From the human T2T-CHM13v2.0 reference genome, Homo sapiens, in the NCBI RefSeq assembly GCF_009914755.1, contig NC_060927.1: a stretch of 64,000 nt of DNA. The stretch is one strand, 5' to 3'. A model generated the notes under the pieces. It ran no database searches. It was not told where the DNA came from and saw nothing but the letters and a program-made list of their open reading frames with translations. The translations under genes and the position numbers were made by a program. This document shows, piece after piece, positions 17,372 to 28,891 of this stretch; the first letter of the stretch is position 1, and every line of letters begins with the position of its first letter.

Positions 17372-17972
17372 AAAGGCTTCATTGCAATGAGCTCCATTTC
17401 TCTCTTTTGTCTAATTTACTTCCTTTTTGTTTCTCCAACCTCCAAAAGTCTAGTCTTTTTTTTAAAAAAGTTATCCCCAGTAGAGATTAGAGATGACTAG
17501 AAGTTCTTCATGTTGTGTAAAGGATATAAAAATTTTATGTAGAAGGGACTCAAAATTGGATAAGACTGCCCTCTTCAAAACATTTAAAACTTCTGAGTCC
17601 TCTTCTAGATGTTAGAACAAGAAAATTGGGGTCAATAAAGGTTTTCTGTTCAAAGTTTCATGCATTTTTTTCTTAAGGAGAGAATGTCTGTAATGTATCA
17701 CATTTCCAGAAAAATCTATGACACAGAAAAGGTTAAAGCAGTGCTTGAGCAACCTTGCATCATGAGCTATTTGGGTCGGCTTTATGGGAATCATCAAAAC
17801 CCTGTGCTGGATTAAATTCTACAGTACATCAGGCATTTATTCTTTCAGCTCAAGTAACAGCATTAACTGCTGGAGAAAGTACCTGAGAAAACTTATGGTT
17901 GGGTAAGGAACACTGAGAGTCAGGATGCATGGCCTGTGACAGACATTCTGTTCTTAACTTGATGGATGAAGT

Positions 17973-18447
17973 TGCAGCAGGATGAGCCACAGACTAGAAC
18001 CCCTCAGACAACAATTTGTAGAAGGAAAGGGCTTTATTCACCTGGGAGCATCGGCAGACTCACGTCTCCAAAAACCGAGCTCCCCGAGTGAGCAATTCTT
18101 GTCCCTTTTAAAGGCTTACAACTCTAAGGGTGTCCATGTGAGAGGGTCGTGATCGATTGAGCAAGCAAGCAGGCAGTACGTGACTGGGGGCTGCATGCAC
18201 CTGCACCGGTAATTAGAATGGAAGAGAACAGGACAGGGATTTCCACAGTGCTTTTCCATACAATGTCTATAATCTATAGATAACGTAACCCATTAGGTCA
18301 GGGGTCAGTCTTTAACTACCAGGCCCCAGGGTGTGGCGCCGGGCTGTCTGCCTGTGGATTTCATTTCTGCCTTTTAGTTTTTACTTATTCTTTCTTTGGA
18401 GGCAGAAATTGGGCATAAGACAATATGAGGGGTGGTCTCCCTCTTTA
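17973..18447 (-). repeat. HERV-E 3' LTR (LTR2 family)
   Basis: Direct repeat of 26295-26766; AATAAA on the - strand at 18033-18038; preceded on the - strand by polypurine tract AAAGGGAGGGGAA (18448-18460). Confidence 0.95.
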
Positions 18448-18474
18448 TTCCCCTCCCTTTGAGAACCTCACTCA

Positions 18475-20530
18475 TTAGTGGGAGTTTTCACTTTTATTTT
18501 TACTACCTATGTCTTTTTGCAAGACAGATCGATAGTAATTCATACAGTACACTTGTGCCAAAGCATTTTTGTGAACTAAGGTAGCAGTGAAGCTTTTTAT
18601 CATTTGAAGAAGTACAGGTAGTAAACAAGGAAGCAATAAGCAGGTTCTTATTACTATTATAACTCTTATTATAAAAGTTTTAAATTCTCCTAGCGCTGGG
18701 AGCCATTTTTTAAACATGGCCTTAGGATTAAATCCATGCCACACTTGCACAGGCACATGTGTCAGTTTTGTCATATTTTTAACTATGTCTTCAACTACTT
18801 GTCCTTGATCATCTATGTGTAGACAGCAATTAGTAAGGTTAAATTTCCTACAGACCCCTCCTTCAGCTGCTAGCAAGTAGTAGAGAGCTAATCTATTTTG
18901 ATAGATAGTATTTCTCATCTGAGTTTCTTGCCAGAGCAGAATAGTCAAGGCTCTGCCGGTTTTATTAGTGATTATTTCTAAGACAGCTTGTAACCGTATG
19001 ATTTGATTGATCCTGTAAATGGGAGTCTGGTATCCCCACGAGCTGTCTTGTGTCTAAGTAGCAGGCCTATGATATTGTATGATTTTTTTTCAGGGGGCTA
19101 TTTTTTTTTTAATTTTTTATAACTATGCTTCTCTTTTTGTGGGAAGCATAGACAGGGAAGCTAGGAGTTTGCCTGTTTTTATGGGCAGTAGGAAGAAAGA
19201 TGGTTTAAGAGTGCCAATAACACAACTACCTGCCCACTGGTCAGGTAATTTCGCATAAGCTCTATGCCCACATATCCAGTATAATCCAGTGGGGGCTGTC
19301 CAGTCCTGGTGGGACTCCAGGTAGGTCCACACGGTTTGCAACTTTGGGAATTTACTAAATGGATTCCTTTTTGTGTGATTTGAACTCCACCCAGTGACTG
19401 TTTTCGTGTTACCACTATACAGTTTCTGTCCTAGACAACTAAGTCATCCTACAGGGTGAGTGGATTTTTTTTTTCTAGCTATGCAATACTGTCCAATAAT
19501 TGAGGCTTTTAGGACTAGAAATTGTCAGGGTGATTTTTCTGAGCCGGGAATTCATCAGGAACTGGGTCTGTAGGTACTAATTTTCATGCTTCCTATGGCT
19601 GTTGATCTCCTGTTACAGTTTCTCCACATACATAACATGAAGTGACATTGAGAAACTGGGCTACATGCTCGGCTAATTGCAAAAACAAATTTCTTGGGTT
19701 TTTTTTGGAATTTCTGGTACTGGCACATTTAGTTCATCATAGAAAGTTTAAAACACTGGCTCAGGAGAGCGTTTGTAAACTTTTCCTGAAACTAAGATAT
19801 TTACTCAAGGATCCAGTCTGGCCCCATCGATTCCTAAGGTCACACGTTCCCCTTTTTTTCACTGAGGATCAAGGGGATTGGTTATTACTAGCTCTAAGGA
19901 GTTACATTGTCCCTTAGTACAGGAAGGGCCATTTTTTTCTTTTTTGAAGGTGGACTGGATCATTTTTATTTTTTATTCAAATGGCCTAAATGACACAAGA
20001 CCAGTATTTACATTTATATTTATATAGTCCTAATTTATGACAAATTTACTTACTTTTGGTCATATAGTCTTTTTTTTAATTAAGAGAGTCACATTTCCTT
20101 TCTAACTTATTGCTATTAATGACAGCACAGGCATCAAATTTCAAGATTATGCATTTGGGCACCCCCTTTCTTTTGTTCTGGCTAATACTTTACTTGTATT
20201 ATTTATGAGTCCTCACCAGTCTTTAGTTCTTAATCTTATTTTAAAAACTGTGGACATGGGAGGCCCAGAGGGGTCATAACACACATCTGGCTGGTCGTTT
20301 CCTGGGCTACATACCTTGTACTGAGTGTCATTATATAAACATGCTCCTTTTAAAGTTTCTAGGCATTCATAGTAACTATAGAACAGAAAGATTGTTTTAC
20401 TTTCTTGTCTTACCTCAGTAACCTGATGTATACACTAAGAGTAGTCTTTCATGCGGGGAAAATCAGTGGAAGTTTTTACTATACAAGTCCAAATTATAAG
20501 GAAAATGAGTTTTACGATGATTCTCCTCAT
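18475..20530 (-). pseudogene. env: HERV-E env, disrupted; TM part open (18475..18948)
   Basis: ATG at 20530 with signal-like MRRIIVKLIFLIIWTC; immunosuppressive motif [17 protein letters not shown], Cys loop [10 protein letters not shown] and hydrophobic anchor; many stops and frameshifts in SU. Confidence 0.9.
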
Positions 20531-20533
20531 GCT

Positions 20534-23500
20534 TCAGCCGTGCGTAGACCAGTCAGCTTCTGGATGTGACTGGAGCAGGGCTTGTCGTCCTCCTCAGAGT
20601 CACTTTGCAGGGCTTGTCCAGGCTCGGTTTTGTCTCCTAGTTTTCAGTGGCTGTAGGTTTCACATGGCTGTTGTGGATCCAGGCTGGGATTCCTTCTACC
20701 TTTACAGCCGTGGGGGTGGTCAGGATGATGGTTTGAGGTCCTTTCCACGGTGGCTGTAAAGGGGCTACGTTCCAGTCCTTGATCCACACGCGATCACCTG
20801 GAAAGAAAGGATGAACTGGGGAGAATAAGCTGATGGGACACCTCTTATTTACCTAAGTTGAGATTGTTTGTGTAATTTTTCTTAAAGCCTGTAGCTGTCA
20901 CTGTAATTCAATTTCACCTAACTCTCGGGGAGTGCCTGGAAGTCTCTGTAGTATAGGAGGAGGCCTATGATACAGTATTTCATAAGGGGAGTATTCTGTT
21001 TTCTTAGAAGGAGTGCATTTAATTTTAAACAATACCATAGGAAGGGCCTGTATCTATTTTAATCCTGTTTTCTGACATACTTTTTTAAAACTATTTTTGA
21101 TAGTCCGATTCATTCACTCCACCTTTCCGGAACTCTGAGGTCGGTAGGCGGCATGTAGCTTCCAAGTGATTCCTAATGCCTTTGCTGTTTTCTGTACCAA
21201 GTCGCTCACAAACCTGTTACCTGAGCCGATTCGTAAGGGCAGTCTAAACCTAGGAATAAGATCTCAGAGAAGCACACGGGTTACTTCATAGGCCTTTTTA
21301 GTTTGTGTTGGATCAGCCTCCACCTACCTAGAGTAAGTACACACAAGAACCAGCAAATACTTGTTACCTCCACATTTTGGCATTTCTGTGAAATTTACCT
21401 GAAGATCCTCAAAAGGAGCTGCTCCATAAGCTTGTGTGCCAGGTGGAACAGTGGGGCTTTGCCTCACATTGTGCTGTTGGCAAGTAACGCACTGTTGTGC
21501 TACTGCTTTGGCAAGGGCTGGCAAATGTGAGATGTAGAAGTACTGGCCTAACAACTTTTTAAGTGACTCTTGACCTTAGATGAGTAGTTTTGTGCACGGC
21601 CAATACGATTGTGGCTCCCAGAAACTGTGGCACAGCTACCTTCCTATCTGGCAGTCTGATCTATCCTCCTTTTATTACTTGCCCCCTTTCTGCATGGAAA
21701 AAGTCTTTTTCTTCCTTAGAATAGGTAGGTACCAGGTCAGGTGTTTGAGGGAGTAATGGGGCTGCTACCGATGCCCAGTAAGGGGTAGATGCTGCTTTTC
21801 GAGCTTCTGAATTAGCTCGAGAGTTTCCTAGGGCCACTGAGGTGGAGGCTCGCTGGTGTCCCCTGTAGTGCATGACTGCCACCTTTTGAGGTTTTTACAC
21901 TGCCTCTAATAATTGTAGAATTTCTTGTTGATATTTTATGTCCTTTCCCCCAGGGTTTAACAGGCCCTTTTTCTTGTATAATGCTCCATGCACTTGAGAA
22001 TTAGAAAGGCATATCGAGAGTCAGTGTAGATGTTTACAGTCTTACTTTTACTGAGTTCTAGAATCTGAGTTAAAGCAATGAGCTCAGCCTTCTGGGCTGA
22101 AGTGCCCTGTGGCAATGGTTTGGCTTCAATGACAGCATCCAAAGTTACCACCACATATCCTGCACATCTTTCATCTTGTGGGTTGATGAAGCTGCTCCCA
22201 TCTACATATAACTCCCAGTCTACTGAGATGCCCATGGCTGGTCCTGAAGGTCAGGTCTGCTAGAATAGACTGAGCCCAACACCTCTACACAGTTATGCTC
22301 AACCAGCCTTTCTGATAATGGGAACAGGGTGGTGGGATTTAGGTTGTTACAGACTTCAATTGTTATCTGGGGATTTTCACAAAGCAAGCTTTGGTACTTG
22401 GTTAATTTAGCATTTGTTAGCCAATGATGTCCTTTGGTATTCATCAAGGTTACCACAGCATGGGGGGCTTTTATATTCAGCTTTTGCCCAAGGGTTAGTT
22501 TATCTGCTTCTTGTGCTAACAGGGCCGTTGCTGCCAGGGCCCTTAGACATGGTGGCCGGCCTTTGGAAACCCCATCTAGTTGTTTTGAGAGATAGGCCAC
22601 TGGTCTTGGCCAGGGCCCCACAGTCGGTTAAAACTGTAACTGCCATTTTTTTTCTTTTTGACACATAGAGTGTAAAGGGCTTTGTCAAATCTGGTAGTCC
22701 TAGGGCACAGGCCAACGTAAGTTTTTCCTTTAACTTACAAAAGACTAGCTCTTGTAGAGGCTCCCATTTAAAAGTTACCGGTCGCCCCCCTTTGTAGCCC
22801 CGTACAAAGGTTGGGCTAGTACTGCAAAGTTTGGAATCCATAATCTGTAAAACCTTACAGCTCGTAGGAATTCCCTTACTTGCCTTCTGGTTTTAGGTTC
22901 CAGTAGGCTGCAGATGACCTGCTTTCTTCCTGACTCCAGGCTGCGCTCCCCTTTCCGAATAGTGAATCCCAGGTAGCATACCTGCTGTCTGCAGATCTGA
23001 GCTTTCTTCTTGGACACTTTCTACCTACAGTCCTCCAGGTGCTGAAGTAGGACATCCGTACTTTTTGCGCACCCGACTGCCAAGGAGTGTCCCAGCAGAA
23101 GGTCGTTCATGTACAAAAGCAAGATGCAGCCTAGGTCTTTAGCAGGAAACTTTTGCAGGTCTTGAGCCAGGGCCTCCCTGAAGATAGTAGGGGAGTTCTT
23201 GAACCCTTGGGGAAGCCGGGTCCAAGTGTACTGAGTAGTCACACCTGACTCCGGATCTTCCTACTGAAAGGCAAACAGCTTCTGGCTCTCAGGAGCTAGT
23301 CTGATGCTAAAGAAGGCATCTTTTAAGTCCAGACAGGTAAACCAACTGTCCTTAGCAGGCAGTAGCCCTAACAATGTGTAACGGTTAGGAACTGTTGGGT
23401 GCAGAGTCACTGTAGCTTGGCTGACCAAGCGCAAGTCCTGCACTGGCCGGTAGTCCTTTGTCCCTGGCTTAGGGACAGGCAGGAGGTAGGTGTTCTATGG

Positions 23501-24142
23501 AGACTGGCAAGGAACTATAGTTCTAAATTATAGGTGCTTTTAAGCGCCTGAGATGAACCTGGATTCCCTCAAGAGCTTCTCTGGGAACCGGATACTGCTT
23601 TTGTCTAATTGGCTGGGCCCCAGGCTTAACTTCTGTGAGTACGGGTGCTTGATTGACTGCCAGTCCCAGAGGATTATCCTCTGCCCATATTTGGGGCCAT
23701 CGCTTAGCTAGACTGGTTTTATCTCTTGGCCTGGCTCGGTTAGAAAAAGTCTCTATTCTTTTTCCTGGGGGACCGTAAGGGCCATGATAACTCCTGTTCC
23801 CAGTAACTTTAGCTGTAAAGAGCCCTGTCTTGTAAAGGAGATGGTGGCTCTCAGCTTGCTAAGCAAGTCTCTTCCCAGCAAAGGCAAGGGACAGTCAGGC
23901 ATGTACAAGAACTGGTGAACTATTTTATGTCCCACCACCCAGCAGGTCCGTGGTAGACAGAAAGCCTGCTTAGTGGAAACTTCTGTTGCTCCGATTATAT
24001 CAATGGTTTTCTCGGGTAAGGGGGTGACCGGGGTGGTCACTACTGAATGTTCAGCACCAGTATTGACCAAAAACTTAATGTCCTTGCCTCCAATTGTAAT
24101 CCTGACGGCAGGCTCCTTGGGGGCGCTTCAGCCCAGTCCCCT
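20534..24142 (-). pseudogene. pol: HERV-E pro-pol (protease, RT, RNase H, integrase), disrupted
   Basis: Protease VNTGA (DTG degraded); RT LPQGFKNSP and YMND (YxDD degraded); RNase H YVDGSS...YTDSRYAF; integrase CVTC and DLQVNFTEMP. Confidence 0.93.
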
Positions 24143-25749
24143 TCAGTCTAATAGCCCTTCAGCCAGATTGAACAAAGCTCTCTCATCTTTATCTAAGGTC
24201 TTTTGTTCTGAATCACCTTGTTTTTCCTTCAGTTGGGGACACTTATTTTTCTAATGTCCTATTTCCTTACAATAGGAGCATTGGTTACATTGAAAGTGTG
24301 GGCGATTAGACTGGGTATTCTTCCCAGAACCCTCCTTTTCTTTCCCTTTTGGGGGAATTCCCTTAATGGCCGCGGCCAGTAAGTTGGCGTTTCCGCCTGG
24401 CCTGGTGTTCGGCTTTCTCAGCGGCTTGTTGCATCTTTGTTCACAAACAAACACTTGATTGGCTATTTCCAGTAATGGCGAGGTATTCATACCCACAAAC
24501 CCTGCCTGTTTTTGCAATTTTTTCCTGTTATCTTCTGTGCTTTGACTAACTAAGGCCATGTTAATCATGTGCTGATTTTCAGGGCTATTTGGATCAAAAG
24601 GAGTGTACATACGGTAAGCCTCACACAGTCTTTCATAGAATTGTGCTGGACTCTCCCCTTTTTCTTGGATGACCTCAGAGACCTTATTTAAATTTGTAAC
24701 CTTTTGAGCCCCTTTCTTTAGACCTTTTATCAATGCCTTAGGATACCATCTTAGCCTCCCTGTGTCTGGTCCCTCGTTCAGGTCCCATTGGGGGTCTGTT
24801 CCTTGCAGCTGAATCCTTATATATTCTTGGGGGTTTTGGTAATCGGCTGGGACATGCTACTCTAGCTACTTAGTTGCCGCCTGGAGCACCCTTTGCCTTT
24901 TATTTGTATTAAAGAGGTACATGAGCAGCTGGTGGCAATCAGCCTAAGTAGGATTATGAGTCTGTATAACGGTTTGGAGCAAGTCAATTAAAGCTTGAGG
25001 CTTTTTGGTATAAGGTGGAGTATTATTTTTCCAATTGAGGAGGTCAGCAGAGGTGAAAGGTTGATACAAAGGCACGCCTTTCCACCATGTGTCCATCCTC
25101 ATTTACCCCAGTAATATTGCTGTTCTCTCAGGGGCATTTGGATTCCAGTCTTAGGCCGTAAGCAAGCTGCCAAGGGAGGAGTTTCTCCTTCAGCTTTACT
25201 TCCTCTTTTGTCTATGCTGGGTGGTCTAGGAGTGTGGCTATCTGGTGGAGGTGGAGGTGCTGTGGGTTCTGGAGTGGGGAGCCCTTCCTCTCAATAAGGA
25301 GGGGGTATTCCTGGTACCAATTCCTGCCATGATTCTTCTGGTGTTGGGACAGACAGGACTTTTGGTGCTGAATTCCCTCGGTGGGTGGAGCGAGAACCTT
25401 CCTTAACTAACTGTCCCTTTGCTACTAGTACTGCTGCTGCCTGTCCTCTTAACCACTGTGAGGGGTCTAAAACTAACTGTAACCAAGAATCTATATGTAT
25501 ATACGGGAATTGATACGGGAATTGATCTGGGTGCCCTGGCTTACAAGTTACCTTGTGCCACACTTTTGAGAGAAGGGACCTGTCCAGGCTTCCTTCTGAT
25601 GGCCAACGTACCTGTAATGCTGGCCAGTCTATCTCACACAAAGTTCTAAGTTTTCTTGGTGTCATAACTCCATAGTCTCCCTTAAATCCTGTTTTGAAAT
25701 TTTTCAACATAGTTCCTAGTGGGATGGGCTCACTTTGTGCCTCACCCAT
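24143..25749 (-). pseudogene. gag: HERV-E gag, disrupted
   Basis: MGEAQSEP matrix start, PPPY late motif, MHR (IQEKGESPAQFYERL), CCHC knuckle CSYCKEIGH*KNKC; TGA at 24143-24145 at the gag/pro boundary. Confidence 0.92.
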
Positions 25750-26271
25750 GTTTCCTCCAGACAAAACACCACACTCACACCACACTCACACCACAAAACA
25801 AAGAACAGGTAAAGAGGGCACACACACACTTTTACAGTTTACACCAAACCAGAAACAACCAAAATCAGAGTATCAAATCCAAGCCAGGTCAAAACCAAAA
25901 CCAAAGTATCAAGCAATCCAAGTCAAGCCAAAAACAAAAACCAAAGTGCCAGTACAGGCACGTCGTGGGTGATCAGGCCATGCTTCCACTCAAATGGAGT
26001 GGGCAAGTTCCAAAGACCAGTCTTACCAAGTTTCAGATGTCCGGACTCCAAGTGCCAGTTCCTTCCCGGTGTTCAGCCACTGCACTGATCATCCACAAGG
26101 GCCTGCTGTCCACCGCTCTGACGAGGCGTTCCACCAGGGCAAATGCCTACCCGAGAGTGCTCTCAGGATCTGCATCGCTCAAGCTGGCCGGAGTCCCCCG
26201 CAGGGATGCTCCACAGGGCAGGCCTAAGCTGACTAAGGGGCTGACTCAACTGTCCGTCCTTAATCACCTGC

Positions 26272-26289
26272 TTCCTGGTCAGGAAACCA
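26272..26289 (-). promoter_or_regulatory. Primer-binding site complementary to tRNA-Glu
   Basis: TGGTTTCCTGACCAGGAA, 16/18 match to the complement of the recalled tRNA-Glu 3' end, 5 nt downstream of the 5' LTR. Confidence 0.88.
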
Positions 26290-26294
26290 CGAAA

Positions 26295-26766
26295 TGTAGC
26301 AGGATGAGCTGCAGACAAGAACCGCTCAGACACCGAATTGTAGAAGGAAAGAGCTTTATTCAACTGGGAGCATCTGCAGACTCACATCTCCAAAAACCGA
26401 GCTCCCCGAGTGAGCAATTACTGTCCCTTTTAAGGGCTTACAACTCTAAGGGTGTCCATGTGAGAGGGTCGGGATTGATTGAGCAAGCAGGGAGTATGTG
26501 ACTGGGGGCTGCATGCACCTGCACGGGTAATCAGAATGGAACAGAACAGGACAGGGATTTTCACAGTGCTTTTCCATACAATGTCTGTAATCTATAGATA
26601 ATATAACCGATTAGGTCAGGGGTCGATCTTTAACTACCAGGCCCCAGGGTGTGGCACCGGGTTGTCTGCCTGTGGATTTCATTTCTGCCTTTCAGTTTTT
26701 ACTTTTTCTTTCTTTGGAGGCAGAAATTGGGCATAAGACAATATGAGGGGTGGTCTCCCCCCCTTA
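26295..26766 (-). repeat. HERV-E 5' LTR (LTR2 family)
   Basis: TAAGGGGG...GCTACA termini on the - strand; about 7% diverged from the 3' LTR by manual count. Confidence 0.95.
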
Positions 26767-28891
26767 AAGTGAGCAAATAATCTCATCTCCCTGGGCAATA
26801 GTGTTTCTAAACACTGTTTCTAAAGTGAGAGAGTTGGACTAATTCAATGGTTTCACATCTAACCTGGAGACTTTTGGAAAACTCTGGATCACTGGGTTCC
26901 ATCCACCACCAGCTATAAGAGACTCACTGTAGTTAGCACAATGGATTTTTTTTAAAGAAAGCTACTCAAGACATTCTGTTCTTTGACAAGTAGAGAAATC
27001 ATTTCAGCAGACAGTCTGTGGTCACTTCTAGCTTTAAAATGCTGAGTTTCCAATAAAAAAAATACTCTGGGCAGAATCTGGATTGGTATGAAGTGTTAAT
27101 CATCTGAATAAATATAGTGCTCTTTTTTAAGCATAAGTGATTAATACTACATGTAAATGAAATTATTCAGATAGCCCATCAGATTGCTGGGAAGTTACTA
27201 ATTATATACATATATATATGTGTGAGTGTGTGTGTGAATGGAGTACACTTGATTATGCCTCACGCTTTTAAAAAAATGTTCAGCCTTTATTTTAGATAGA
27301 TGGGGTACATGGGCAGGTTTATTACATGGGGATATTGCACCAAGGTAGTGAGCATAGTACCCAACAAGTAGATTTTCAACCCAGGCCCCCTTCCCCGCTC
27401 TCTCTAGCAGTCCCCAGTGTTTATTATTCCTATGTTTATGTACATGTGTACTCATTGTTTAGCTACCATTTGTAAATGAGAACATGTGGTATTTAGTTTT
27501 CTGTCCCCCATTAGTTTGCTGAGGATTCTTGCCTCCAGATTCATCCATGTTGCTGTGAAAGACATGATTTCATTCTATTTTATGACTGTATTACTATGGT
27601 AATTTATCACTGTGGTGGATATGTACCACATTTTCTTTATCCAATCCACCACTGACGGTCACCTATGCTGATTCTATGTCTTTGCTATAGTGAGTAGTGC
27701 AGCAATGAACATATGAGTGAGCATTTCTTTTTGATGTAGTGATCTATTTTCCTTTGGGTATGCGCCCAGTAATGGAATTGCTGGGTCAAATAATAGTTCT
27801 TCGTTTTTTGCGAAATCTCCAAACTGCTTTTTGCAGTGGCCGACCTAATTTACATTCCCAGCAACAGCTTTTCCTTTTCTCCACAGCTTTGCCAGCATCT
27901 GTTTTTTGACTTTTTAATAACAGCCATTCTGACTAGTGTGAAATGGTATCTCATTGTGATTTTGATTTGCATTTCTCTGATGATTAGTGATGATAGCTTT
28001 TTTTCATATGTTTGTTGGCCACTTGTGTGTCTTCTTTTGAGAGGAATCTGTTCATGTCTTTTGCTCACTTTTTAATGGAGTTGTTTGGTTTTTGCTTGTA
28101 AATTTGTTTAAGTTTCTTATAGATTCTGGATAATCAGACCTTTTTCAGATGTATAGTTCATAAATATTTTATCCCATTTTGTCAGTTGTCTGTTTACTCT
28201 CTTGATAGTTTCTTTTGTTATGCAGAAGCTCTTTAGTTTAATTAGATCGGACTTGTCATTTTTTGTTTTCACTGCAATTGCTTTTGGGGACTTGGCAAAA
28301 AATTCTTTGCCAACACTAATGTCAAGAAGAGTACTTCCTAGGTTTTCGTCTAAGATATTTATAATTTTAGGTCTTATACTTCTATCTTTCATCCATCTTG
28401 AGTTAATTTTTGTATGTGGTGACAGATAGGAGTCTAGTTTCATTCTTATGCATATGGCTATCCAGTTATCCCAGCACCGTTTATTGAACAGGAAGTCCTT
28501 TCCCATTACTTATGTTTGTCGATCTTATGGAAGGTGAGAGGTTTTAAACATGTGGCTTCATTTCTGAGTTTTCTATTCTGTTCCATTGGTCTGTGTGTCT
28601 GTTTTTGTAACAGTACCATGCTGTTTGGTCATTATAGCCTTATGGTGTAGTTACAAGTCAGGTAGTGTGATGCCTCCAGCTTCATTTTTGTTGTTGTTGT
28701 TGCTTAGAATTGCTTTTGCTGTTTGGGCTCTTTTTTTGGTTCCATATGAATTTTAAAATAGTTTCTTCTCATTTTTTGAAGAATGATATTGGTAGTTCAA
28801 TAGGAGTAGCACTGAATCTGTAAGTTGCTTTGGCCAGCATGGTCATTTTCATGACACTGATTCTTCTAGTCCTTGAGCATGGAATGTTTTT

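What the first reader, a model, noticed from the sequence alone, without database searches (positions are those of the whole stretch)
18475..25749. HERV-E provirus shows APOBEC3-type G-to-A hypermutation, heavier towards env
Seen: at least eleven TAG stops on the viral sense strand fall where a conserved Trp (TGG) is expected: 24944 (PT*AD), 24866 (TK*LE), 24251 (GH*K in the CCHC knuckle), 23753, 23495 (SP*NT), 23261 (FQ*ED), 21661, 21324 (YSR*VE, i.e. GGG TGG>AGG TAG), 21054, 20853 and 19054. GA-context changes also hit catalytic motifs: protease DTG>NTG and RT YxDD>YMND. Env around 19081-19140 has collapsed into A runs, while 5' gag keeps its Trp codons. Established: GG>AG is the APOBEC3G signature, GA>AA that of APOBEC3F/H/D/B, and editing rises towards the PPT. 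Inference: this virus or its progenitor was edited by more than one APOBEC3 enzyme, and this copy was probably coding-dead on integration.
Basis: partly seen in the sequence, partly recalled or inferred. Interest (0 to 1): 0.75.

Follow-up and report, generated by a model that had tools for sequence, protein, structure and literature searches.

The report
APOBEC3-edited HERV-E provirus in KCNH8 intron
An ancient retrovirus copy in a human KCNH8 intron carries about a hundred extra G-to-A changes of the kind host APOBEC3 enzymes make, a genuine but already well-described sort of molecular fossil.

Summary
The provirus is full length: window 17973-26766, minus strand, two LTRs, 4-bp target-site duplication.

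I compared it with 16 paralogous copies from the same genome. Outside CpG it has 143 private sense-strand G>A changes against 37 C>T (p 3e-15). The paralogues give ratios of 0.54-2.45.

- **Context:** the excess sits in GA (68/401) and GG (38/335), not GT (5/272). The GRD-versus-control odds ratio is 5.8 (p 5e-15).
- **Gradient:** the edited fraction rises 5' to 3', from 0/56 just after the 5' LTR to 23/78 in env.
- **LTRs:** differences between the two LTRs are strand-symmetric.
- **Claimed stops:** all 11 TAGs lie where 12-17 of 18 paralogues read a Trp triplet. The protease and RT catalytic Asp positions read Asn.
- **Relatives:** no other copy is more than 91% identical, so the edits are private to this integration.

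Best reading: APOBEC3-type deamination of minus-strand cDNA in the last replication cycle, so the copy was coding-dead on arrival about 19-43 My ago.

"More than one enzyme" is unresolved, because GG and GA edits are randomly interspersed.

The phenomenon is well documented in other primate gammaretroviral fossils and in a rhesus HERV-E. This is a clean new example, not a new kind.

The parts
17973..26766 (-). Full-length gammaretrovirus-like (HERV-E-type) provirus, 8794 bp
   Evidence: LTR pair; ends and flanks read; collinear with full-length paralogues.
26295..26766 (-). 5' LTR
   Evidence: Aligned to the 3' LTR: 38 substitutions in 472 positions, K2P 0.086. Private G>A in GR context: 1 of 22.
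17973..18448 (-). 3' LTR, preceded by a purine-rich tract
   Evidence: Private G>A in GR context: 3 of 32, none shared with the 5' LTR.
26767..26770 (-). Target-site duplication, upstream copy (4 bp)
   Evidence: The same 4 bases flank both ends.
17969..17972 (-). Target-site duplication, downstream copy (4 bp)
26272..26289 (-). Primer-binding site region
   Evidence: Conserved 18-nt block just after the 5' LTR in the 18 copies that cover it. The match to tRNA-Glu is recalled, not tested.
24449..25659 (-). gag: MA (25444-25659) and CA p30 (24449-25045)
   Evidence: Pfam Gag_MA E 2e-11 and Gag_p30 E 6e-43. Two of the claimed TAGs lie in CA.
23840..24118 (-). Protease; the catalytic Asp position reads Asn (codon 24062-24064)
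   Evidence: Pfam RVP E 3.5e-13; XMRV protease 3nr6 E 2.4e-23; 17 of 18 paralogues encode Asp.
22349..23530 (-). Reverse transcriptase; YxDD reads YMND (codon 23105-23107)
   Evidence: MLV/XMRV RT 4mh8_A E 3e-113 with residue-by-residue alignment; 18 of 18 paralogues encode Asp.
20652..22214 (-). RNase H and integrase (zinc finger, core, MLV-type C-terminal domain)
   Evidence: Pfam RNase_H, zf-H2C2, rve and MLVIN_C.
18478..19053 (-). env TM remnant (192-aa open frame)
   Evidence: PDB matches to syncytin-2 (E 1e-6), an MLV-related Env TM (E 0.0055) and other class I fusion subunits. Pfam gave no env family.
19563..20362 (-). Most heavily edited 800-nt bin
   Evidence: 23 of 78 GR-context G sites changed to A (29.5%).
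19081..19140 (-). Purine tract in env reduced to A runs
   Evidence: 37 A in 60 nt; 6 private G>A.

Best explanation
A HERV-E-type gammaretroviral genome was deaminated on its minus-strand cDNA by host APOBEC3-type cytidine deaminases. This happened during the reverse transcription that preceded this one germ-line integration. The C>U changes were fixed as roughly 105-125 sense-strand G>A changes. They fall in GG and GA contexts and become denser where the minus strand stays single-stranded longest, towards the polypurine tract. The provirus therefore arrived with many Trp-to-stop changes and with altered protease and RT catalytic residues. It left no progeny and has since decayed neutrally. 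Shown: the strand asymmetry, the context, the gradient and the privacy of the changes. Inferred: the enzyme family, the timing before integration, and death on arrival.
For: Polarised counts against 16 paralogues: X has 167 private G>A among 350 private changes in 7400 polarisable columns. Outside CpG there are 143 G>A against 37 C>T (p 2.8e-15). All 16 paralogues give ratios of 0.54-2.45. Pairwise counts that need no polarisation: against each of 18 paralogues, sites with G in the paralogue and A in X outnumber the reverse by 42-149 (p 2e-3 to 3.5e-20). C/T differences were near-symmetric in 16 of the 18 comparisons; two leaned, in opposite directions (L015 +29, p 0.01; L026 -35, p 0.0009). 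The largest net purine imbalance among 120 paralogue-paralogue pairs is 32. Context: GG 38/335 (11.3%), GA 68/401 (17.0%), GC 13/253 (5.1%), GT 5/272 (1.8%). The mirror C>T classes run at 2.0-2.9%. GR versus GY gives OR 4.7, p 8e-12, and no paralogue falls below p 0.03. GRD 91/536 against control 20/587 gives OR 5.8, p 5e-15. Extended motifs: GAA 25.8%, GAT 19.4%, GGG 24.2%, TGG 19.0% against AGG 7.4%. C at +2 is disfavoured (GAC 2.8%, GGC 3.4%). This matches the APOBEC3G motifs in the abstract of PMC3909203 (listing). Gradient in GR context per 800-nt bin, 5' to 3': 1.7, 4.3, 14.9, 10.4, 12.1, 12.1, 14.9, 17.1, 29.5, 21.5, 16.3%. Spearman p 3e-7, while C>T and other changes stay flat. The 3' 1.9 kb has 42/160 against 14/180 in the 5' 1.9 kb, p 4e-6. 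LTR-LTR differences are strand-symmetric (G/A 6 against 7, C/T 5 against 5), so post-integration decay shows no such bias. No closer relative exists. The same three features (GG and GA bias, a 5'-3' gradient in some proviruses, Trp-to-stop) are reported for other primate endogenous gammaretroviruses (PMC2564838, passages).
Against: No orthologous locus could be examined, so timing before integration is inferred, not shown. LTR sparing is only a trend with exact LTR boundaries: 4/54 against 102/682, p 0.16. The earlier p 0.023 used approximate boundaries. The drop across the 3' LTR junction is not significant: 8/45 against 3/32, p 0.34. The rise is stepwise rather than smooth: low for the first ~1.4 kb, a plateau of 10-15%, then 20-30%. 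This could also reflect recombination between an edited and an unedited genome. Polarisation covers 7400 of about 8790 columns and rests on near-unanimity of the other copies. With 21 comparison copies the counts fall to 86 against 28, still p 2e-11. The deaminase itself cannot be identified from sequence.
Confidence: 0.9

Rival explanations
1. One ancestral deaminase with a dual GG/GA preference made all the edits, rather than two or more APOBEC3 paralogues.
For: GG-type and GA-type edits are randomly interspersed along the genome: 36 GG and 66 GA edits form 50 runs against 47.6 +/- 4.6 expected, p 0.73. Both show the same 5'-3' gradient (MWU p 0.005 and 1.5e-5).
Against: The extended motifs split into the two patterns known from separate modern enzymes: GGG/TGG and GAA/GAT. 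PMC2564838 attributes mixed GG+GA footprints in rhesus gammaretroviruses to two APOBEC3 proteins (passage). Interspersion is also expected if two enzymes ride in the same virion.
Confidence: 0.3
2. The low 5' end reflects recombination during reverse transcription between a co-packaged unedited and an edited genome, not only a single-strand-exposure gradient.
For: The edited fraction steps from 0/56 and 4/58 in the first 1.2 kb after the 5' LTR to 10-15% thereafter. PMC2564838 raises the same possibility for RhERV (passage).
Against: The fraction keeps rising further 3', from 12% to 29.5%, which a single crossover does not explain. Editing acts on cDNA, so a recombinant would need two different cDNAs.
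Confidence: 0.12
3. Hypermutation by reverse-transcriptase misincorporation under a dCTP/dTTP pool imbalance, with no deaminase involved.
For: It would also give sense-strand G>A, and by recall it was historically linked to GpA contexts.
Against: It does not predict the strong GGG/TGG component, the disfavoured C at +2, or a density that tracks single-strand exposure time.
Confidence: 0.03
4. Post-integration strand-biased mutation of this locus, whether transcription-coupled, replication-linked or nuclear deaminase damage.
For: The provirus lies in a KCNH8 intron and overlaps a predicted lncRNA exon on its own strand (annotation supplied with the finding).
Against: The two LTRs, which record only post-integration change, differ symmetrically. 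Non-G>A private changes are similar in the LTRs (21 of 699 columns) and the interior (162 of 6701). The context and the gradient do not fit. None of the 16 paralogues shows the bias.
Confidence: 0.03

Closest known systems
Hypermutated endogenous gammaretroviruses of chimpanzee and rhesus macaque (CERV1/2, RhERV1/2; Perez-Caballero, Soll and Bieniasz 2008, PMC2564838; passages read)
   Same: Class I/gamma-type proviruses with a plus-strand G>A excess outside CpG, GG and GA dinucleotide bias, a 5'-3' gradient in some proviruses, and Trp codons turned into stops.
   Different: A different and older ERV family in the human genome. Here a single copy out of 17 closely compared carries the footprint. 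The evidence comes from private changes against paralogues, not from a family consensus.
Hyperedited HERVE element in rhesus macaque (Knisbacher and Levanon 2016, PMC4866542, supplementary alignment table, row 9)
   Same: Same named ERV subfamily. G>A makes up 108 of 133 mismatches against its presumed source copy.
   Different: Another species and locus, and a 2.8-kb fragment. Whether the human chr3 copy is in their lists is unknown: supplementary file 1 could not be searched.
Genome-wide G>A strand bias of human ERVs (Ito, Gifford and Sato 2020, PMC6955324; passages)
   Same: Reports GG>AG and GA>AA preference in human ERV subfamilies, and individual ERV copies with a hypermutation signature.
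   Different: A statistical survey against RepeatMasker consensus alignments. A search of its 9 held supplementary files for HERVE or HERV-E found nothing.
APOBEC3G/F-hypermutated HIV-1 and HERV-K(HML-2) proviruses (Yu 2004, Suspene 2006, Lee 2008, Armitage 2008; seen only as references, otherwise recalled)
   Same: Minus-strand deamination with a gradient set by single-strand exposure. The tests are Hypermut-type context tests.
   Different: Lentiviruses show twin gradients because of a central polypurine tract (title of Suspene 2006 as cited). Here there is a single overall rise, as expected for a simple retrovirus.

Membership tests
APOBEC3-hypermutated provirus | Sense-strand G>A far exceeds C>T once CpG sites are excluded | tested here: met
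   143 against 37, p 2.8e-15; 16 paralogues give 0.54-2.45. Pairwise net excess is 42-149 against each of 18 copies.
APOBEC3-hypermutated provirus | Enrichment in GG/GA (GRD) over GY/GRC contexts (Hypermut-type Fisher test) | tested here: met
   GRD 91/536 against control 20/587, OR 5.8, p 5e-15. GR against GY gives OR 4.7, p 8e-12.
APOBEC3-hypermutated provirus | Density rises 5' to 3' towards the polypurine tract | tested here: met
   Spearman p 3e-7; 42/160 against 14/180, p 4e-6.
APOBEC3-hypermutated provirus | LTRs little edited compared with the interior | tested here: inconclusive
   4/54 against 102/682, p 0.16 with exact boundaries; p 0.023 with approximate boundaries.
APOBEC3-hypermutated provirus | Changes present at integration, that is, shared by all orthologues | not testable with these tools
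   Only the window's own assembly is held. Indirect support comes from symmetric LTR-LTR differences.
APOBEC3G-type footprint | GG>AG with TGG/GGG favoured and C at +1/+2 disfavoured (abstract of PMC3909203) | tested here: met
   GGG 16/66, TGG 23/121 against AGG 10/135, GGC 2/59, GGT 1/50. The enzyme identity itself cannot be tested.
APOBEC3F/D/H-type footprint | GA>AA preference (PMC2564838 passage) | tested here: met
   GA 68/401; GAA 39/151, GAT 13/67, GAC 2/72. Which paralogue acted, or whether it was a separate enzyme at all, is not resolved.
HERV-E (class I, gammaretrovirus-like ERV) | Gamma-type gag-pro-pol-env: Gag p30, MLV-like RT, MLV-type integrase C-terminal domain, class I TM | tested here: met
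   Pfam hits; MLV/XMRV RT E 3e-113; TM matches.
HERV-E (class I, gammaretrovirus-like ERV) | Primer-binding site complementary to tRNA-Glu | not tested
   The PBS block is conserved across the 18 copies that cover it. No tRNA-Glu sequence was obtained from a tool, so the match is recalled only.
HERV-E (class I, gammaretrovirus-like ERV) | Belongs to a multi-copy family carrying that name in repeat libraries | not testable with these tools

The most novel reading that the evidence does not exclude
This single provirus, about 19-43 My old, preserves a CCC-type (A3G-like) and a TTC-type (A3F/D/H-like) footprint, evenly interspersed on one cDNA molecule. If ape and monkey orthologues confirm that the edits predate integration and fix its age, the copy would be a dated fossil. 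It would show that both specificities already existed and were co-packaged into gammaretroviral particles in an early catarrhine germ line. That gives a minimum age for the functional split of the APOBEC3 paralogues.
Probability: 0.35. Interest if true: 0.4.

Novelty: new member of a known kind. Interest (0 to 1): 0.25.

Why it matters
The copy is a clean, internally controlled example of innate-immune editing caught in a germ-line fossil. It is one hypermutated copy among otherwise unbiased paralogues. It carries two context signatures and a single 5'-3' gradient. It is a useful teaching or benchmark locus for hypermutation detectors on T2T assemblies. With orthologue dating it could give a calibration point for when GG- and GA-specific APOBEC3 activities were in place. 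It does not change what is known about APOBEC3 or HERV-E.

Tried and rejected
- **Context table:** the GC column was wrong because one key served two classes. One search replaces it.
- **LTR sparing:** it looked significant with approximate boundaries (p 0.023) but not with exact ones (p 0.16). I do not use it as support.
- **Drop at the 3' LTR junction:** not significant (p 0.34).
- **Separating two enzymes by tract structure:** the runs test gave nothing (p 0.73).
- **Wider survey for pure-GG or pure-GA copies:** Five were obtained. None of them settles the question. The two most divergent, L033 and L035, have high 'private' counts in all classes.
- **Pfam on env:** no family in any frame, even at E up to 1. 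The TM was identified through PDB sequences instead.
- **Literature on this locus:** no paper holds both 'HERV-E' and 'KCNH8'. Searches for HERV-E with APOBEC3 and hypermutation terms returned no study of HERV-E editing in humans. Anwar et al. 2013 (PMC3700199) is not held. The Ito 2020 supplements have no HERVE entry. Supplementary file 1 of Knisbacher 2016 could not be searched. Prior listing of this copy therefore cannot be excluded.
- **tRNA-Glu test of the primer-binding site:** left undone, because no tRNA sequence came from a tool.
Full report
**What is there**

Window 17973-26766, minus strand, holds a full-length provirus of 8794 bp.
- Two LTRs were found as direct repeats. I delimited them at 26295-26766 (5') and 17973-18448 (3').
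- The same four bases flank both ends, as expected for a single retroviral integration.
- Reading the three sense frames with X at every stop gives Pfam matches to Gag_MA, Gag_p30, RVP, RVT_1, RNase_H, zf-H2C2, rve and the MLV-type integrase C-terminal domain.
- The pol segment matches MLV/XMRV reverse transcriptase structures at E 3e-113 and XMRV protease at E 2.4e-23.
- Pfam found no env family. The 192-aa open frame at 18478-19053 matches syncytin-2 and other class I fusion subunits in the PDB.
- The element is gamma-type. The tRNA-Glu primer-binding site that defines the name was not tested (one search shows only that the block is conserved).
- The coding capacity is gone. The longest sense-strand open frame between stops is 201 aa.

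**Checking the observation**

At each, 12-17 of 18 paralogous copies read a Trp triplet.
- In the alignment to MLV RT, two of the stops face Trp and the YMND motif faces YVDD.
- The protease NTG and RT YMND positions are Asp in 17 of 18 and 18 of 18 paralogues.
- The env stretch 19081-19140 has 37 A in 60 nt. It holds 6 private G>A within what is a mixed G/A purine tract in the other copies.
- The 5' quarter keeps 31 of 35 near-unanimous TGG triplets. The 3' quarter keeps 15 of 31.

**Comparison set**

The window's own assembly can be searched. A 1-kb pol query found 42 matches, the best non-self at 91%. A 1.4-kb env query found 41, the best non-self at 89%.

I fetched 20 copies and aligned them with MAFFT in a script.
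- I dropped L011 from the counts because it is 99.8% identical to L012.
- I kept L027 and L029 (82-84% identical, a distant subgroup) out of the polarised counts but in the pairwise ones.
- X is 87.5-90.4% identical to the 16 close copies. Most pairs among those copies are 90-93% identical.

**The hypermutation test**

I counted private changes: columns where X differs from the state shared by all but at most one of at least 8 other copies.
- X has 350 private changes in 7400 polarisable columns, and 167 of them are G>A.
- Outside CpG there are 143 G>A against 37 C>T (binomial p 2.8e-15). The same count for each of the 16 paralogues gives ratios of 0.54-2.45.
- A count that needs no polarisation agrees. 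Against each of 18 paralogues, sites with G in the paralogue and A in X exceed the reverse by 42-149 (p 2e-3 to 3.5e-20).
- C/T differences in those comparisons are near-symmetric: the net difference ranges from -35 to +29.
- Among the 120 paralogue-paralogue pairs the largest net purine imbalance is 32.

**Context**

- By +1 base: GG 38/335, GA 68/401, GC 13/253, GT 5/272. The mirror C>T classes run at 2.0-2.9%.
- GR against GY gives OR 4.7, p 8e-12, and no paralogue falls below p 0.03.
- The Hypermut-type contrast is GRD 91/536 against control 20/587, OR 5.8, p 5e-15.
- By trinucleotide: GAA 39/151, GAT 13/67, GAG 8/70, GAC 2/72; GGG 16/66, GGA 14/132, GGC 2/59, GGT 1/50.
- With the -1 base: TGG 23/121 against AGG 10/135.
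- These are the motifs given for APOBEC3G in the abstract of PMC3909203: TGG and GGG favoured, C at +1/+2 disfavoured. The GA>AA preference is attributed to APOBEC3F, B and H in PMC2564838.

**Distribution along the genome**

- In GR context the edited fraction per 800-nt bin, 5' to 3', is 1.7, 4.3, 14.9, 10.4, 12.1, 12.1, 14.9, 17.1, 29.5, 21.5 and 16.3%.
- C>T and other changes stay flat across the same bins. Spearman p is 3e-7.
- The first 600 nt after the 5' LTR have 0/56.
- The 3' 1.9 kb of the interior has 42/160 against 14/180 for the 5' 1.9 kb, p 4e-6.
- GG and GA edits show the same trend separately.
- With exact boundaries the LTRs carry 4/54 against 102/682 inside, p 0.16. LTR sparing is therefore a trend only. 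The p 0.023 depended on approximate boundaries.
- The drop across the 3' LTR junction is not significant (p 0.34).

**Timing**

- The two LTRs differ at 38 of 472 aligned positions (K2P 0.086).
- Those differences are strand-symmetric: G/A 6 against 7, C/T 5 against 5.
- With assumed neutral rates of 1.0-2.3e-9 per site per year (my assumption), the integration is about 19-43 My old. PMC9706992 states that HERV-E entered after the catarrhine-platyrrhine split (passage).
- Private changes other than G>A are similar in the LTRs (21 of 699 columns) and the interior (162 of 6701). Ordinary decay is therefore uniform, and the G>A surplus of about 105 is an extra layer.
- No other copy shares the edits.
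- Of 124 near-unanimous TGG triplets, 26 now read TAG, TGA or TAA.
- In the homology-supported segments, 6 of 20 in-frame stops carry a private G>A. Several of the rest arise from a local frameshift in RT.
- The inference is that this cDNA was edited in the cycle that produced the integration, and that the copy arrived unable to code.

**One enzyme or several**

Both contexts are hit, at roughly 1:2 after subtracting background. The 36 GG and 66 GA interior edits are randomly interspersed: 50 runs against 47.6 +/- 4.6 expected, p 0.73.

Adding five more copies revealed no copy with a pure footprint. In that 22-copy analysis X still stands out (86 against 28, OR 6.0). L035 also shows a skew (109 against 62), but with all contexts raised, and it is a divergent copy. 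The multi-enzyme inference stays open.

**What is known**

- PMC2564838 describes the same triad (GG and GA bias outside CpG, 5'-3' gradients, Trp-to-stop) in chimpanzee and rhesus endogenous gammaretroviruses (passages).
- The supplement of PMC4866542 lists a hyperedited HERVE element in rhesus, with 108 G>A of 133 mismatches.
- PMC6955324 reports GG/GA-biased strand asymmetry and hypermutated copies across human ERVs (passages).
- I found no mention of this locus. Key lists could not be seen.

**Verdict**

This is a well-marked new example of a known phenomenon.

Noticed in passing
window 20414-23029 (-): The supplied annotation places the first exon of the predicted lncRNA LOC105376982 wholly inside pol-env of this edited provirus, on the viral sense strand. 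PMC4866542 reports that edited elements are enriched among exonised and TSS-bearing elements in human (passage).
   Followed up: no
L035 (G000:C1:210931745-210940928): A divergent, partly deleted HERV-E copy with 109 non-CpG private G>A against 62 C>T (p 3.5e-6) and GR against GY OR 1.9. All contexts are raised, so it may be subfamily divergence rather than editing.
   Followed up: partly
L024 (G000:C12:100600877-100610451): Borderline G>A skew: 27 against 11, GR against GY OR 2.7, p 0.03. Not significant after allowing for 16 tests, and weaker with more copies.
   Followed up: partly
window provirus, GCA context: G>A in GCA is 8/80 (10%) against 0/61 for GCC and 4/73 for GCT. This is a small unexplained excess outside the GR contexts.
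   Followed up: no
window 18442 and 18444 (-): Two private GR-context G>A changes lie in the first 7 nt of the 3' LTR, next to the polypurine tract. They are absent from the 5' LTR. They could be late edits or post-integration changes.
   Followed up: no
window 26272-26289 and the same block in L011-L028: None of the 18 sequences that cover the primer-binding site keeps the CpG inside it. All read TG, CA or TA there, which is ordinary CpG decay.
   Followed up: no
L011 (C24:62393524-62403108) and L012 (C23:154196538-154206122): Two copies near the ends of contigs 23 and 24 are 99.8% identical over the whole provirus. They look like one locus in a shared sex-chromosome region. L011 was therefore dropped from the counts.
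   Followed up: no
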